DNA of 25,581 nucleotides from a virus, in the UHGV virus genome UHGV-0343683, one strand, 5' to 3'. A program made the position numbers and the translations under genes. Below the pieces are notes generated by a model. It searched no databases and was not told where the DNA came from. It saw only the letters and a list, made by a program, of their open reading frames with translations. Below, piece after piece: positions 1 through 3,686 of the stretch. Each line of letters starts with the position of its first letter. The stretch's first letter is position 1.

Positions 1-376
1 GTTGTTTGCGCTCATGCTCGGTATCAAGTGAATTCACCTGTTTCACAGATGTGAACTCGGTCAAGATTTTACTCTCAGTACGGGTGACTTGTTGAGAGGG
101 TGTAGCAGTTGGAATTCTTTTGCTAGACGCAGCTACAGCCATTTTGCGAGCTTCGGCAGCTCTTTTTCTGGCTATTCCGCGAATACGGACAGCCGTTTTT
201 TTGGGGGCGTGCGAAACCTTTGGCTGAGGTGAAGCTTCGTCAGGAGACTGAACCGGAGTTTCATCGTCCTCCGGCTCAACCTCTTCTGCTAACTGACGGT
301 GTAGGTTGAGGGAATCCTTCAGTCTGCGTGCTACTTCCTGTTTGAAACGGCTGTTAAAATCGTCATCCGATGGCAT
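1..376 (-). CDS. hypothetical protein, partial (C-terminus beyond window edge); acidic/basic low-complexity N-terminal region
   Basis: ATG at 376 (reverse strand) lies 10 nt downstream of the ImmA stop; frame stays open to position 1 (translation MPSDDDFNSRFKQEVARRLKDSLNLHRQLAEEVEPEDDETPVQSPDEASPQPK...). Not in the ORF track because it runs off the window. No family recognised. Confidence 0.4.
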   Translation of the reverse strand, partial: MPSDDDFNSRFKQEVARRLKDSLNLHRQLAEEVEPEDDETPVQSPDEASPQPKVSHAPKKTAVRIRGIARKRAAEARKMAVAASSKRIPTATPSQQVTRTESKILTEFTSVKQVNSLDTEHERKQ

Positions 377-385
377 TTTAAAGCG

Positions 386-874
386 TTACCCCAACCTCAA
401 GTTCTTTAAACGATAAGTCATCGCATCGTCAGATACGCCAAAATAATGCGCCATTATATAACTTGGTTGACCGTCAGCGTGCAGTTTTCTGACCTCATCT
501 ACCGGCATCAGAAGTTCTGCTGCGAACTTGTTTGCAAAAATTTCATCAGGATGCGTTCCGGCGCTTGCGGTTTCGCCACGTAAATCAACGTACTCATATT
601 CATCGCTATGCGATGCTTGCCGGGCGATGTAATGCCCCAACTCATGCCCACATGAAAAACGTTGACGAACTTTGTTGTCATCACTGTTTAGAAAGATCGC
701 TGGATCTTGATCTTTTTGTTTAATCAGTGCGCCAGAAACTTTCCCAGGAAGATCGGTAATAAAAACATCTAATCCCATGTCGTGAGCAATTTTCGCTGGA
801 TCAACAGGGAAACCACGCCCGCACCAGAACGTGTCCAGCACTCGCCGGGCGTGCTCTCTTGGGTTGGTAGCCAT
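386..874 (-). CDS. ImmA/IrrE family (COG2856-like) zinc metallopeptidase
   Basis: 162 aa with HEXXH motif (CGHELGHY) in the characteristic RQRF-x-x-x-HELGH context; GGAGG Shine-Dalgarno upstream of ATG at 874. No XRE/HTH partner immediately upstream (about 400 bp non-coding). Confidence 0.8.
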   Translation of the reverse strand: MATNPREHARRVLDTFWCGRGFPVDPAKIAHDMGLDVFITDLPGKVSGALIKQKDQDPAIFLNSDDNKVRQRFSCGHELGHYIARQASHSDEYEYVDLRGETASAGTHPDEIFANKFAAELLMPVDEVRKLHADGQPSYIMAHYFGVSDDAMTYRLKNLRLG

Positions 875-1250
875 AGCTCCTCCAGTTACTGCATTACGAT
901 TATTGGTTGAAATATAGACAGCATGTTCCGTACCACATTCCTGTAAAAGTGCAAATTCTGCACTTCTGGTACGATATTAACTGTTAGTAGTAAAGTCTTC
1001 CAGATAAATCACTTTAAAATCTTGTGAATTGCTTGCTTTTTACGCTGTATTGTGGATGGTTCAATGTTTCCAGTAAAAACATACATGATAATCATGAGTT
1101 TAGTGTTTTTTTAGGCGTCTATATGTTTCTGGAAAATACAGGTCTAACCTGATCTTATCGTTGAGATTTTTTGTACTCAGTATGCGTGAACGATTCGACC
1201 AGGTGACTGTGTACGTGAAGAAGACCGCCCTTAATATTTTAAATGTGCAA

Positions 1251-1266
1251 CCCCTCAGAAGAGGGG
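1251..1266 (-). terminator. putative hairpin (cccctc-agaa-gagggg) just downstream of the 77-aa minus-strand gene
   Basis: 6-bp GC-rich stem, 4-nt loop, 7 nt after the stop codon at 1273; trailing U-tract is weak. Confidence 0.3.
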
Positions 1267-1272
1267 CTACTC

Positions 1273-1506
1273 TCACTTCTGCAGTATCTCGCCAATACCT
1301 GCCAGATTCTCGTCCATCTTGTCACCGTTTTCGATAAGGATGGAGTTGAGCCGATTCAGTTGCATAGCAATTTCAAGTTTGATTAAGGTATCCACCGATA
1401 CACCAGTTTCTTTTGCTAACTTAGTAAGAGCCGCAGCTCGATTGGCTAAATTAAAATCATCGAACTCATAACGACTTCTGCACGGCTGGTTGCCTAACGT
1501 ACCCAT
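1273..1506 (-). CDS. small HTH-like protein (putative transcriptional regulator), 77 aa
   Basis: ORF with AGGAA Shine-Dalgarno 4 nt upstream of ATG; helix-turn-helix-like segment LTKLAKETGVSVDTLIKLE; divergent from the 1750 gene. Confidence 0.5.
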   Translation of the reverse strand: MGTLGNQPCRSRYEFDDFNLANRAAALTKLAKETGVSVDTLIKLEIAMQLNRLNSILIENGDKMDENLAGIGEILQK

Positions 1507-1749
1507 AGTGATTCCTCATGATATAAAGACCCAACAATATAAATTACCAGGCACATCATAAGATAGGGTTCCAGCCCATATTTTCAAATATTTGCAAGTA
1601 TCACCGTTCAGTCTAAAAAGTTGGATGATGATTTAACGAGCCATAACAAAACCCTGCCTCGGAGGTTTTTTCTTTTTTATAGAACTCAGCGGCGTGAAAA
1701 CGAATAATAAATTGTGCAAATAGTGCAGTTTTTATTATTCGAGGTAATT

Positions 1750-2391
1750 ATGAAAACCTTCTATGAGGACTGGCCTGAAACTTTCGTTAGCCGGTTAGAT
1801 ATGTTACGGGCGTTGGATGATCGCGGTTCGACCCGGAGGCTCTATCTTGAACGGACCGGGGCAATATTTGACGCTCTGGCAGAAGAGATACGTACAGTCG
1901 TTGCCGGGCATCCTGAAATCGACGTGAGTGAACTTGATATCGGGCCGCTGTATCGCTATTACAAACGTGGAGAAAAGGGGAATCCGCTGGCTGACTTACT
2001 TATTGAGTTGGCTCCACCAACTTGTGAACGGGTTCGTATATCTCCTGAAGTGTACATAATCCCGTATCTGTTTTTTGCACTGTTGATAGCGCAAGGCGCT
2101 GACAACGATGCCCGCGATTTTTTCAATATGATGATGCGACCGTTAATCATCGCCTACCGTTTCAAACAACTGGCGCGATACCTGGGAACAAAGGGCGGAG
2201 GACGACCACAGCACAGATTAAAAAGCGAAGCCATTGAACTGGCTGATCGTTTTTTTACTGAAAACCCGACAGCGCCATTATCGCGTGGCGTGCAATACAT
2301 ATCCGGTATTTTTGTGGCGAAATACTCTGACCCACCTGCAGCGTCGACGATTAGAAAATGGTTAATTCCAATTTACAGGAGTGATAAATAA
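1750..2391 (+). CDS. hypothetical protein, 214 aa, unknown function
   Basis: ATG at 1750 preceded by GAGGT (4-nt spacer); the track ORF begins at GTG 1714 but lacks an RBS there. No family recognised. Confidence 0.6.
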   Translation: MKTFYEDWPETFVSRLDMLRALDDRGSTRRLYLERTGAIFDALAEEIRTVVAGHPEIDVSELDIGPLYRYYKRGEKGNPLADLLIELAPPTCERVRISPEVYIIPYLFFALLIAQGADNDARDFFNMMMRPLIIAYRFKQLARYLGTKGGGRPQHRLKSEAIELADRFFTENPTAPLSRGVQYISGIFVAKYSDPPAASTIRKWLIPIYRSDK

Positions 2392-2398
2392 TGACCAT

Positions 2399-2447
2399 AA
2401 ACGGTTTAATCCCCTATAAAACCGTTTAATAAAATTCACGACGTGAA
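2399..2447. promoter_or_regulatory. paired palindromes: inverted repeat AAACGGTTT/AAACCGTTT (2399-2407 and 2419-2427) and TTCACG-a-CGTGAA (2435-2447)
   Basis: Read directly; located between the stop of the 1750 gene and the SOS-box promoter. Candidate operator(s) or weak terminator. Confidence 0.35.
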
Positions 2448-2484
2448 TATAATTGTTCATTATTCCCTCATTGTATTTGGCGTT

Positions 2485-2522
2485 ATGACAAATGCCATAA
2501 AATACTGTATAAATATACAGGT
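2485..2522 (+). promoter_or_regulatory. sigma70-like promoter (-35 ATGACA 2485-2490, 17-bp spacer, -10 TATAAA 2508-2513) overlapped by a LexA SOS box (2503-2522)
   Basis: tactgtataaatatacaggt matches the LexA consensus TACTGTATATATATACAGTA at 17 of 20 positions, with the CTGT-N8-ACAG core intact; the box overlaps the -10 and start region. Confidence 0.65.
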
Positions 2523-2542
2523 TGTGGCATTGGGGGGAAGAC

Positions 2543-2722
2543 ATGAATATTCAAGAATCTATAGGCGAACTACCGGAAACATGCCGGGCTGTTATCAAGC
2601 GTAAGGACGGACACATCGTTGGTGTGCGTGTTCTGACCGATGATGAGCGGATTGCCAGCCTGATGGCGTTTCTCGAGTTGGCAGAAATAGCTGGATATAC
2701 TATTACACCCCCTGACGCGTAA
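2543..2722 (+). CDS. small SOS-box-associated protein, 59 aa (putative LexA-regulated regulator or antirepressor-like; function unknown)
   Basis: ATG at 2543 preceded by a G-rich Shine-Dalgarno; about 20 nt downstream of the LexA-box promoter. The track ORF starts at TTG 2522. Confidence 0.55.
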   Translation: MNIQESIGELPETCRAVIKRKDGHIVGVRVLTDDERIASLMAFLELAEIAGYTITPPDA

Positions 2723-2799
2723 AACACGGTATAATATCGGTGCTGGATTGAACACCCGGCACCATTTTCTGAACACTGCCGCGCCACCTGGAGTTAACC

Positions 2800-3396
2800 A
2801 TGGCGCAGCATTCATTTATCAGGGTATCCGGCGGTTCGCTAATACCCGCGACACCAGACACGCAACGCTGGTTGACTGAACGAGTCAAACCAGGTGCTGT
2901 TGTGTATGCAGATTTCAAACAGGCGCGTAATCCCGCGTTTCATCGTAAATTTTTCTCACTTCTCAACCTGGGCTTTGATTACTGGCATCCGTCCGGAGGG
3001 GCTATTTCTCCTGCGGAGCGCGAACTGGTTCACGGCTACGTTAAGTTACTGGCGTATTACGGTGGACACGGTGATGTCATGGCAGAGCTGGCTGATCAGT
3101 ATCTTCTCGATGAGTCGGAAAAGCGCGCGGGGAGTATCAGTGCGGTGAAGTCGTTCGAGGCGTTTCGCGCATGGGCGATTATGGAAGCTGGGTTTTATGA
3201 CGTTCATCAGATGCCAGACGGCAGTTTGATGCGCGTACCTCGTTCAATCTCGTTTGCAGCGATGGACGATCTTGAGTTCGGTCAACTGTATTCAGCCGTT
3301 TTAGATGTGCTGTGGAATTATATTTTGTTCCGCACATTTGCCTCTCAGGAGGCCGCTGAAAATGCCGCCGCGCAGCTGCTGGATTACACATCATGA
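2800..3396 (+). CDS. DUF1367 family phage protein
   Basis: 198 aa; motif FKQARNPAFHRKFFSLLNLGFDYWHP, typical of the lambdoid prophage DUF1367 family as remembered; GGAG Shine-Dalgarno 7 nt upstream. Confidence 0.65.
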   Translation: MAQHSFIRVSGGSLIPATPDTQRWLTERVKPGAVVYADFKQARNPAFHRKFFSLLNLGFDYWHPSGGAISPAERELVHGYVKLLAYYGGHGDVMAELADQYLLDESEKRAGSISAVKSFEAFRAWAIMEAGFYDVHQMPDGSLMRVPRSISFAAMDDLEFGQLYSAVLDVLWNYILFRTFASQEAAENAAAQLLDYTS

Positions 3397-3686
3397 AAAA
3401 AATCGACCTGAGAAAAGCTGCACGCAGTCGCGCTTGTACTGTGCGTATCCCCGGTGTGTGCAATCACAATCCTGAAACCAGCGTACTGGCTCATTATCGT
3501 CTCGCCGGAACGTGCGGCACAGCCATCAAACCTCACGATATGCAGGGCGCTATCGCCTGCAGTGCGTGTCACGATGCCATCGACGGACGTACAAAAACGG
3601 ATTACGAGCACGACTCATTGTTGTTGATGCACGCTGAGGGAGTTTTCAGAACACTGGCTATCTGGCGCGATGAGGAGTTTATCTGA
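3393..3686 (+). CDS. YbcO-like DUF1364 protein (putative zinc-binding nuclease-like)
   Basis: 97 aa; RIPGVCNHNPETSVLAHYR ... CSACHDAIDG resembles the DLP12 YbcO family; start overlaps the upstream stop (ATGA). Confidence 0.65.
   Translation: MKKIDLRKAARSRACTVRIPGVCNHNPETSVLAHYRLAGTCGTAIKPHDMQGAIACSACHDAIDGRTKTDYEHDSLLLMHAEGVFRTLAIWRDEEFI

What the first reader, a model, noticed from the sequence alone, without database searches (positions are those of the whole stretch)
1..1272. Lone ImmA/IrrE-type metallopeptidase on the opposite strand without its usual HTH partner
ORF 386-874 (minus) has the HEXXH signature of the ImmA/IrrE (COG2856) protease family, which normally sits immediately downstream of an XRE-family repressor that it cleaves. 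Here about 400 bp upstream is non-coding, and the only nearby HTH-like gene (1273-1506) is separated by its own hairpin. Instead the protease is followed 10 nt later by a gene (376 to beyond position 1) with an acidic and then basic low-complexity region. The genes point against the rest of the late region, suggesting an inserted accessory module. It may be a non-canonical repressor-cleaving induction circuit or a protease-based sensor or defence module.
Basis: partly seen in the sequence, partly recalled or inferred. Interest (0 to 1): 0.55.

Follow-up and report, generated by a model that had tools for sequence, protein, structure and literature searches.

The report
Prophage RosmerTA-type protease plus membrane toxin
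The "lone" ImmA-type protease is the first gene of a portable two-gene cassette whose second gene encodes a small membrane protein. Both are relatives of a toxin-antitoxin phage-defence pair (RosmerTA) already shown to work in Gordonia phage Kita, so this is an unannotated member of a known kind.

Summary
ORF 386-874(-) is a 162-aa Peptidase_M78 protein (HELGH at 632-646). No XRE gene is beside it, 398 nt upstream are non-coding, and a second gene starts 9 nt downstream.

That gene runs past the window's left edge. In E. coli SK1144 it encodes 201 aa: an N-terminal helix, a variable acidic/basic linker, and a very conserved C-terminal two-helix membrane hairpin.

Protease and membrane protein are adjacent in all 20 distinct loci examined, in otherwise unrelated contexts. 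The 77-aa "HTH-like" gene is not conserved with them.

The protease is 43% identical (E 1e-41) to RmrA of Gordonia phage Kita. A 253-member profile of the membrane protein hits Kita RmrT at 34 bits. The Kita pair is a validated RosmerTA system: membrane-depolarising toxin, HTH-less M78 antitoxin, narrow anti-phage defence.

Best reading: a prophage-borne RosmerTA-type toxin-antitoxin/defence cassette, present in about 8% of complete E. coli genomes. It is not a repressor-cleaving induction circuit.

Toxicity, neutralisation and defence are inferred, not tested here. Novelty: new member of a known kind.

The parts
386..874 (-). rmrA-like gene: a 162-aa single-domain Zn metallopeptidase (Peptidase_M78, ImmA/IrrE type), the predicted antitoxin. 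HELGH is at 632-646 and the candidate third Zn ligand E111 at 542-544.
   Evidence: - Pfam E 7.7e-18.
- PADLOC capP 2.4e-25 and RmrA 5.8e-12, peptidase part only.
- 43% identity to Kita RmrA YP_009301393, E 1e-41.
- Catalytic residues conserved.
- AF2 pLDDT 91; Foldseek hits CapP and IrrE.
377..385 (-). 9-nt spacer between the protease stop and the start of the membrane-protein gene. The two genes are tightly linked and probably co-transcribed.
   Evidence: - Sequence.
- The equivalent gaps in related loci range from under 10 nt to about 130 nt.
1..376 (-). First 125 codons of the rmrT-like gene, which is 201 aa in full and continues 229 nt left of the window. The window holds the N-terminal helix, the acidic/basic linker and the start of the conserved juxtamembrane motif. 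The two-helix membrane hairpin (aa 144-197) is outside the window.
   Evidence: - Full gene from L001 14771-15376.
- Family alignments A1-A3.
- Hydropathy and AF2 helices 119-164 and 172-197.
- The family HMM hits Kita RmrT at 34.3 bits; hhalign probability 82%.
875..1180 (-). Upstream leader and presumed promoter region that travels with the cassette in Escherichia. It is nearly identical in E. whittamii as far as about 1150-1180. It contains the inverted repeat GTGCA-N5-TGCAC at 949-963. No convincing sigma-70 promoter or LexA box was found.
   Evidence: - Alignment A4.
- Promoter scans.
- LexA scan.
- RNA fold z = -1.9.

Best explanation
**What it is.** Genes 386-874(-) and 376..(-229)(-) form a self-contained, horizontally mobile two-gene cassette of the RosmerTA kind, of the Gordonia-phage-Kita type (NetFlax RmrA-D25 / RmrT-D5).

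**The toxin (inferred from Kita RmrT).** The downstream 201-aa protein is a small inner-membrane protein.
- Its N-terminal ~140 residues face the cytoplasm.
- It ends in a two-helix hairpin, with both ends predicted on the cytoplasmic side.
- When free, it depolarises and permeabilises the membrane and stops growth.

**The antitoxin (inferred).** The upstream 162-aa M78 zinc protease keeps the toxin in check. This is most likely done by binding and/or cleaving its cytoplasmic part. The conserved 'SLDP...LKK-Y' juxtamembrane segment or the variable linker are the candidate sites.

**Defence (inferred).** Infection by a sensitive phage would disable or outrun the protease. The toxin would then collapse the membrane potential and abort the infection. 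This would protect the lysogen population and also stabilise the prophage.

**Shown here:** domain identity, conserved catalytic residues, membrane topology, strict gene linkage, and homology of both proteins to the validated Kita pair.

**Inferred only:** toxicity, neutralisation, proteolysis of the toxin, defence, and the trigger.
For: 1. **The protease is an intact M78 enzyme.**
   - Pfam E 7.7e-18.
   - H77/E78/H81/E111 are conserved in 98-100% of 119 homologues.
   - The model has pLDDT 91 and matches the CapP/IrrE peptidase plus HTH-like subdomain.
2. **The partner is a membrane protein.**
   - Two hydrophobic helices, with a K/R-rich flank before TM1 and a KRK tail.
   - AF2 helices 119-164 and 172-197 at pLDDT 82-86.
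   - The hairpin is the most conserved part of the family.
3. **Linkage is strict.** The protease sits immediately upstream of the membrane protein in every locus examined.
   - 11 viral contigs and 3 genomes.
   - 6 distant loci at 50-56% protease identity.
   - The flanks are otherwise unrelated: nin region, tail/baseplate genes, satellite-like primase-integrase islands, a Methylobacter chromosome, and next to ars genes.
4. **Homology to a validated system.**
   - The protease matches Kita gp32 (RmrA-D25) at 43% identity, E 1e-41.
   - An HMM of 253 family members hits Kita gp33 (RmrT-D5) at 34.3 bits, bias 0.0.
   - Two unrelated small TM proteins encoded next to other ImmA genes score about 0 bits.
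   - hhalign gives probability 82%, E 1.1e-5.
   - Gene order is the same, and Kita RmrA likewise has no HTH.
5. **What is published for Kita (PMC10440598).** RmrT-D5 depolarises and permeabilises the membrane. RmrA neutralises it partially. The pair gives narrow-spectrum defence against BASEL myoviruses.
6. **The antitoxin role fits other Rosmer systems.**
   - A delta-rmrA mutant could not be transformed.
   - rmrA is essential in three Pectobacteriaceae.
   - Here, the one disrupted copy seen has IS1 in the membrane-protein gene with the protease intact.
Against: - No experiment exists on this pair.
- The toxin homology is remote, about 30% identity over 64-86 mostly hydrophobic residues. 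It rests on profile methods.
- PADLOC has no RmrT model that matches it, and its RmrA models match only the peptidase part.
- How any RmrA neutralises its toxin is unknown. In Kita neutralisation was incomplete, and AlphaFold could not model the complex.
- No promoter was identified upstream.
- The prophage repressor is a 130-aa XRE protein without an S24 domain. A trans-acting ImmA role therefore cannot be formally excluded.
Confidence: 0.75

Rival explanations
1. ImmA/ImmR-like induction switch acting in trans. The protease cleaves the prophage's own short XRE repressor (L001 4939-5331, about 10 kb away) or the 77-aa protein, to trigger induction. The membrane protein would tether or regulate the protease.
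For: - The prophage repressor is 130 aa with HTH_3 only and no S24 autocleavage domain. That is ImmR-like in size and domain.
- The protease is ImmA-sized and of the same Pfam family.
Against: - No XRE gene is adjacent in any of 20 distinct loci.
- The pair sits in unrelated elements, and in a Methylobacter chromosomal site without phage genes.
- The 77-aa gene is missing from the E. whittamii locus, whose protease is 99% identical. It has no significant HTH hit.
- The prophage carries an ORF6N-domain gene. I know this domain from phage antirepressors, so it may offer another induction route, but I did not test that.
- No LexA box lies upstream.
- Both genes are homologous to a validated TA pair.
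Confidence: 0.07
2. CapP-like DNA-damage sensor. The protease senses single-stranded DNA and cleaves a repressor to switch on a neighbouring immune operon.
For: - The best PADLOC hit is capP, 2.4e-25.
- The best PDB sequence and fold match is CapP 7T5T.
Against: - At 162 aa the protein covers only positions 3-151 of the 242-position capP model, and TM-score normalised to CapP is 0.40. The C-terminal GAF domain that forms the ssDNA groove is absent.
- There is no CapH-like HTH gene and no CBASS or other operon downstream.
Confidence: 0.03
3. The direction of control is reversed. The membrane protein is made as an inactive pro-toxin, and the protease is the infection sensor that activates it by removing the cytoplasmic N-terminal region. 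This is a protease-gated abortive-infection effector rather than a toxin-antitoxin pair.
For: - The N-terminal helix and long disordered linker precede a highly conserved effector hairpin.
- The protease's catalytic residues are strictly conserved.
- Neutralisation in Kita was only partial.
Against: - In Kita the toxin alone is toxic, and the protease reduces toxicity.
- rmrA is essential or cannot be deleted in other Rosmer systems.
- The N-terminal region is poorly conserved and almost absent in many family members of 100-120 aa.
Confidence: 0.1

Closest known systems
RosmerTA of Gordonia phage Kita: RmrA-D25 (gp32, YP_009301393) and RmrT-D5 (gp33, YP_009301394). Ernits et al., PNAS 2023, PMC10440598.
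   Same: - Two adjacent genes in the same order, on a temperate-phage genome.
- A single-domain Peptidase_M78 protein without HTH, 43% identical to the window's protease.
- A small partner with an acidic, disordered N-terminus and a C-terminal membrane hairpin sharing the motifs NG-FI and EV-GL---T--LF (34-bit profile match).
   Different: - The host clade is Proteobacteria rather than Actinobacteria.
- The toxin is longer (201 versus 119 aa), with an extra N-terminal helix and a basic low-complexity linker.
- Toxin identity is only about 30% over the hairpin.
- The E. coli pair has no functional data.
Canonical RosmerTA (Millman et al. 2022; the PADLOC RmrA/RmrT models) and the related Xre-peptidase component of PD-lambda-2 (Vassallo et al. 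2022).
   Same: - An M78 Zn-peptidase antitoxin paired with a variable toxin of unknown fold.
- A role in phage defence.
   Different: - The PADLOC RmrA profiles are 357-400 positions long, and NetFlax describes D25 proteins as often carrying a small N-terminal HTH. Here the protein is 162 aa and has no HTH domain.
- No PADLOC RmrT model matches the membrane protein.
ImmA/ImmR (ICEBs1, phage phi105), IrrE/DdrO and CapP/CapH protease-repressor pairs.
   Same: - Same peptidase fold and HEXXH+E zinc site.
- The C-terminal HTH-like helical subdomain of IrrE and CapP is present.
   Different: - No adjacent repressor substrate.
- No GAF domain.
- The conserved partner is a membrane protein rather than a DNA-binding protein.

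Membership tests
RosmerTA, Kita type (RmrA-D25 / RmrT-D5) | One gene encodes a Peptidase_M78 (ImmA-like) protein homologous to a validated RmrA | tested here: met
   - Pfam PF06114 E 7.7e-18.
- BLASTP to Kita gp32: 43% identity over 157 aa, E 1e-41.
- The paper's supplement names gp32 as RmrA-D25.
RosmerTA, Kita type (RmrA-D25 / RmrT-D5) | The adjacent gene encodes a small toxin with a C-terminal membrane region, homologous to RmrT-D5 | tested here: met
   - Two TM helices by hydropathy and AF2.
- The 253-sequence family HMM scores Kita gp33 at 34.3 bits, E 8.7e-13 for the single comparison, while control TM proteins score about 0 bits.
- hhalign probability 82%.
- The homology is remote but consistent.
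RosmerTA, Kita type (RmrA-D25 / RmrT-D5) | A conserved two-gene neighbourhood that moves as a unit between unrelated contexts (the NetFlax criterion) | tested here: met
   The two genes are adjacent in all 20 distinct loci. Protease identity runs from about 50% to 100%, and the flanks are unrelated.
RosmerTA, Kita type (RmrA-D25 / RmrT-D5) | The toxin arrests growth or depolarises the membrane, and the peptidase neutralises it | not testable with these tools
   - Shown only for the Kita pair.
- Indirect support here: the single disrupted E. coli copy has IS1 in the toxin gene with the protease intact.
RosmerTA, Kita type (RmrA-D25 / RmrT-D5) | Confers anti-phage defence | not testable with these tools
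   Shown for Kita, against some BASEL myoviruses, and for other Rosmer systems.
Canonical RosmerTA (Millman 2022 / PADLOC models) | RmrA is a fusion of an N-terminal XRE HTH with the M78 peptidase (PADLOC profiles of 357-400 positions) | tested here: not met
   - The protein is 162 aa.
- PADLOC RmrA hits cover only the peptidase part of each profile, for example positions 166-266 of 363.
- Pfam finds no HTH.
- Kita RmrA also lacks it.
Canonical RosmerTA (Millman 2022 / PADLOC models) | The partner matches a known RmrT model | tested here: not met
   The 201-aa protein has no PADLOC RmrT hit at E <= 1.
ImmA/ImmR (and IrrE/DdrO) protease-repressor module | An XRE-family repressor substrate is encoded next to the protease | tested here: not met
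   - None in the window, in L001, or in any related locus.
- The nearest XRE gene is the prophage repressor, about 10 kb away.
ImmA/ImmR (and IrrE/DdrO) protease-repressor module | The protease cleaves the repressor to induce the element | not testable with these tools
   This needs biochemistry and induction assays.
CapP/CapH | The M78 domain is followed by a GAF domain that forms the ssDNA-binding groove | tested here: not met
   - The 162-aa protein ends after the HTH-like subdomain. It matches capP profile positions 3-151 of 242 and 7T5T residues 79-152 of 291.
- TM-score normalised to CapP is 0.40.
CapP/CapH | An adjacent CapH HTH repressor and a regulated immune operon | tested here: not met
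   Neither is present in the locus.

The most novel reading that the evidence does not exclude
The M78 protease is a truly proteolytic antitoxin. It would continuously clip the cytoplasmic juxtamembrane segment or linker of a pore-forming two-helix toxin, so that loss of protease activity during infection is what arms the pore. This RmrT-D5-like family has at least 1,480 clusters at 50% identity and no Pfam or PADLOC model. It would then be a large, currently invisible class of protease-guarded membrane effectors carried by prophages, satellites and chromosomal islands across Proteobacteria and Actinobacteria.
Probability: 0.3. Interest if true: 0.55.

Novelty: new member of a known kind. Interest (0 to 1): 0.3.

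Why it matters
- **It resolves an annotation puzzle.** "Orphan" ImmA/IrrE proteases with no HTH partner can be the antitoxin half of a RosmerTA-type module. Its toxin is annotated only as a hypothetical protein.
- **The cassette is common in E. coli.** It is in about 8% of complete genomes (431-452 of 5,426), including O25b:H4-ST131 strains. It could affect phage susceptibility, which is relevant to phage therapy, and prophage stability.
- **The toxin family is large and unmodelled.** It has at least 1,480 clusters at 50% identity, and the Pfam and PADLOC libraries searched here have no model that matches it. Scans relying on those models would miss these systems.
- **It offers a tractable model.** It is an E. 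coli-native version of a system so far studied only from an actinophage. That would help answer how an M78 protease neutralises a membrane toxin and what triggers release.

Tried and rejected
- **The 77-aa gene as HTH partner.** No significant HTH hit. It is absent from E. whittamii and from every divergent locus. Rejected.
- **An apparent natural fusion of protease and membrane protein (P0212).** The DNA shows an in-frame TGA between the two ORFs that the gene caller read as Trp. It is an artefact, not a Rosetta-stone fusion.
- **Upstream genes of distant loci as a third component.** They are unrelated to each other.
- **RNA element in 875-1272.**
  - No Rfam match in window 1-3000, which covers this gap.
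  - No LexA box.
  - No good sigma-70 promoter.
  - The leader fold is unremarkable, z = -1.9.
  - No credible small ORF.
- **Direct family searches with the membrane protein.**
  - Pfam, NCBIfam and PADLOC gave nothing.
  - PHROGs gave only a family of unknown function, phrog_5346.
  - tblastn against sequenced phages gave no match.
- **Foldseek of the membrane-protein model against BFVD.** Nothing below E = 1. A helical hairpin is too simple for fold search.
- **Block alignment for modelling protease and toxin as one chain.** MAFFT misaligned the toxin N-termini onto the protease, so I dropped it. The tool reports no contacts anyway.
- **Genome-contig scan.** It returned only 3 loci, because the collection holds one genome per species.
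- **Literature searches.** Searching the three RefSeq accessions found no paper.
- **The E101 clpP-linked TA of Rousset et al.** It has the toxin gene first and is a different Rosmer type, so I use it only as background.

Full report
**Where the window comes from**

Window 1-2400 is 100% identical to a prophage in E. coli SK1144 and to hundreds of other complete E. coli genomes. It matched 452 of 5,426 genomes, always once and always on the chromosome. In the annotated locus (L001 coordinate = window coordinate + 15,000) the order is:
- integrase;
- a 130-aa XRE repressor, then cro and replication genes;
- an accessory stretch: an ORF6N gene, an LprI-like gene and an AT-rich 232-aa gene;
- the two genes of this finding on the minus strand;
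- a 77-aa gene, a 213-aa gene, ninB, Q, lysis genes and the morphogenesis genes.

**Checking the observation**

ORF 386-874(-) encodes 162 aa.
- It matches Pfam Peptidase_M78 (E 7.7e-18).
- The HELGH motif is encoded at 632-646.
- H77, E78, H81 and E111 are conserved in 98-100% of 119 homologues.
- The AF2 model (pLDDT 91.4) matches CapP 7T5T, IrrE/PprI and an M. tuberculosis regulator over the peptidase plus the following HTH-like helices. It lacks their C-terminal domain.

The 398 nt upstream (875-1272) hold no credible ORF, no Rfam match, no LexA box and no good sigma-70 promoter.

The downstream gene starts 9 nt after the protease stop and leaves the window. In full it is 201 aa, built as follows:
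- an N-terminal helix (aa 4-32);
- an acidic then basic low-complexity linker;
- a conserved juxtamembrane helix;
- two hydrophobic helices (about aa 144-164 and 172-197), with K/R on both cytoplasmic sides.

**What travels with the protease**

Close relatives of the protease in viral contigs (77-100% identity) all come from contigs that also carry a relative of the membrane protein (42-100% identity). The membrane-protein gene always lies immediately downstream. The same holds in E. whittamii, Leclercia and Buttiauxella genomes.

A second tier of protease homologues (50-56% identity) comes from Pectobacterium, Silvimonas, Salmonella, Methylobacter and metagenomes. These again have a 115-164-aa gene downstream, separated by under 10 nt, that is clearly homologous in the hairpin.

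The flanks differ completely from locus to locus:
- the nin region;
- tail or baseplate genes;
- primase-AlpA-integrase islands;
- next to ars genes;
- between a PAPS-reductase gene and a GTPase gene in Methylobacter.

Upstream neighbours are unrelated to each other. The 77-aa gene is found only in the E. coli version. It is missing from E. whittamii, although that protease is 99% identical.

The unit of inheritance is therefore the two-gene cassette, with about 300 nt of leader in Escherichia. An exhaustive profile search finds 1,480 clusters (at 50% identity) of the membrane protein at E <= 0.001, nearly all 100-200 aa.

**Identification**

The membrane protein has no Pfam, NCBIfam or PADLOC match. 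The protease hits PADLOC capP and, more weakly, many RmrA models, in every case only over the peptidase part.

A tblastn of the protease against sequenced phages gave Gordonia phage Kita gp32 and its relatives as the best non-Escherichia hits (44% identity).

Kita gp32 and gp33 are the RmrA-D25 and RmrT-D5 pair characterised by Ernits et al. (PMC10440598; accessions confirmed in the supplement). That paper reports:
- the toxin's C-terminus is membrane-localised;
- its expression rapidly depolarises and permeabilises the membrane;
- the M78 protein neutralises it, incompletely;
- the pair gives narrow defence against BASEL myoviruses.

Comparison with the pair in this window:
- Kita RmrA is 178 aa with only a Peptidase_M78 domain. 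A missing HTH is therefore normal for this subtype.
- BLASTP of the two proteases gives 43% identity, E 1e-41.
- The toxins align over the juxtamembrane segment and hairpin. hhalign gives probability 82%, E 1.1e-5.
- An HMM of 253 family members scores Kita RmrT at 34.3 bits with zero bias.
- The small TM proteins encoded next to the ImmA homologues of Che9c and a P2-like phage score about 0 bits.
- Gene order and spacing are the same.

**Mechanism**

*Shown here:*
- an intact, conserved zinc-protease site;
- a cytoplasm-facing N-terminal region tethered by a highly conserved hairpin;
- tight genetic coupling between the two genes.

*Inferred from Kita and other Rosmer systems:*
- The membrane protein is the toxin or effector.
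- The protease is the antitoxin.
- Delta-rmrA could not be transformed.
- rmrA is essential in three Pectobacteriaceae.
- ClpP is needed in another Rosmer type.

One observation in E. coli fits this. The one disrupted copy I saw has IS1 truncating the toxin gene, with the protease gene intact.

Three things remain open: how the protease neutralises the toxin, whether it cleaves it, and what releases it during infection. I favour proteolysis or binding at the conserved juxtamembrane motif.

**Rivals**

- *Trans-acting ImmA/ImmR switch.* This is the main alternative, because the prophage repressor is short and lacks an S24 domain. The portability of the pair, its strict link to the membrane protein and the absence of any adjacent HTH argue against it.
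- *CapP-like sensor.* It fails on the missing GAF domain and the missing CapH gene or regulated operon.
- *Reversed logic, in which the protease activates a pro-toxin.* It cannot be excluded, but it is disfavoured by the Kita toxicity data and by family members that have almost no N-terminal region.

**Dead ends**

- An apparent protease-toxin fusion protein (P0212) turned out to be a TGA stop read as Trp.
- Fold search with the membrane-protein model was uninformative.
- The full list is under Tried and rejected.

**Verdict**

It is an unannotated E. coli prophage member of the RosmerTA (Kita D25/D5) toxin-antitoxin/defence family. It is a new member of a known kind and of moderate-to-low interest. 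The main value is for annotation and as a tractable E. coli model.

Noticed in passing
L001 11349-11426 (about 3.6 kb left of the window); also L014 9121-9203 and L028-L031: A 78-nt relic of the last ~25 codons of an RmrT-like gene lies between the ORF6N and LprI-like genes. It is 89.7% identical to the 3' end of the intact gene. It looks like a recombination scar from another copy of the cassette, and it explains the second match per genome.
   Followed up: partly
L001 13610-14308 (+), left of the window: A 232-aa protein with one N-terminal TM helix sits in a 31-33% GC island. It has a weak PADLOC hit to a DRT-associated TM protein (RTasTM, 1.8e-5) and belongs to phrog_5606. It may be another defence or accessory gene beside the cassette.
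   Followed up: no
window 1273-1506 (-) and hairpin 1251-1266: The 77-aa gene (phrog_5550) has its own GC-rich hairpin. It has no significant domain hit (MerR, E 0.13). It is present in the E. coli versions of the locus and replaced by other DNA in E. whittamii. It appears to be an independent accessory gene of unknown function.
   Followed up: partly
window 949-963 (within the leader 875-1180): A perfect inverted repeat GTGCA-N5-TGCAC sits inside a larger imperfect repeat (CGTACCA...TGGTACG, about 928-972), 75-100 nt upstream of the protease start. It could be an operator or a leader hairpin. The overall fold is not exceptional (z = -1.9).
   Followed up: partly
L044 (E. coli AR_451, NZ_CP030337) 1099-2362: IS1 is inserted in the RmrT-like gene, truncating it to 171 aa and removing the second TM helix. 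The protease gene is intact.
   Followed up: yes
L001 4939-5331 (-): The prophage's CI-like repressor is only 130 aa, with HTH_3 and no S24 peptidase domain. The prophage also carries an ORF6N-domain gene at L001 10535-11323. How this prophage is induced is not obvious.
   Followed up: partly
L043 (P2-like NC_070905) 2489-3665; L042 (mycobacteriophage Che9c) 2417-3312: Other phages carry a stand-alone ImmA-like protease (37-45% identical) followed by a small membrane protein unrelated in sequence to RmrT-D5. This suggests partner swapping among M78-plus-small-TM-protein cassettes. In the P2-like phage the pair sits within the last 1.5 kb of the genome record.
   Followed up: partly
window 650-652 (codon C75 of the protease): A cysteine two residues before the HELGH motif (S-C-G-HELGH) is conserved in 94% of 119 homologues. 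Whether it relates to the zinc site, in the way of CapP's 'cysteine switch', is unknown.
   Followed up: no
L045 529-1365 (Logan contig SRR18106136_125226): The database protein P0212, which looks like a protease-toxin fusion, comes from a gene call that read an in-frame TGA as tryptophan. Under table 11 these are two ORFs 4 nt apart.
   Followed up: yes
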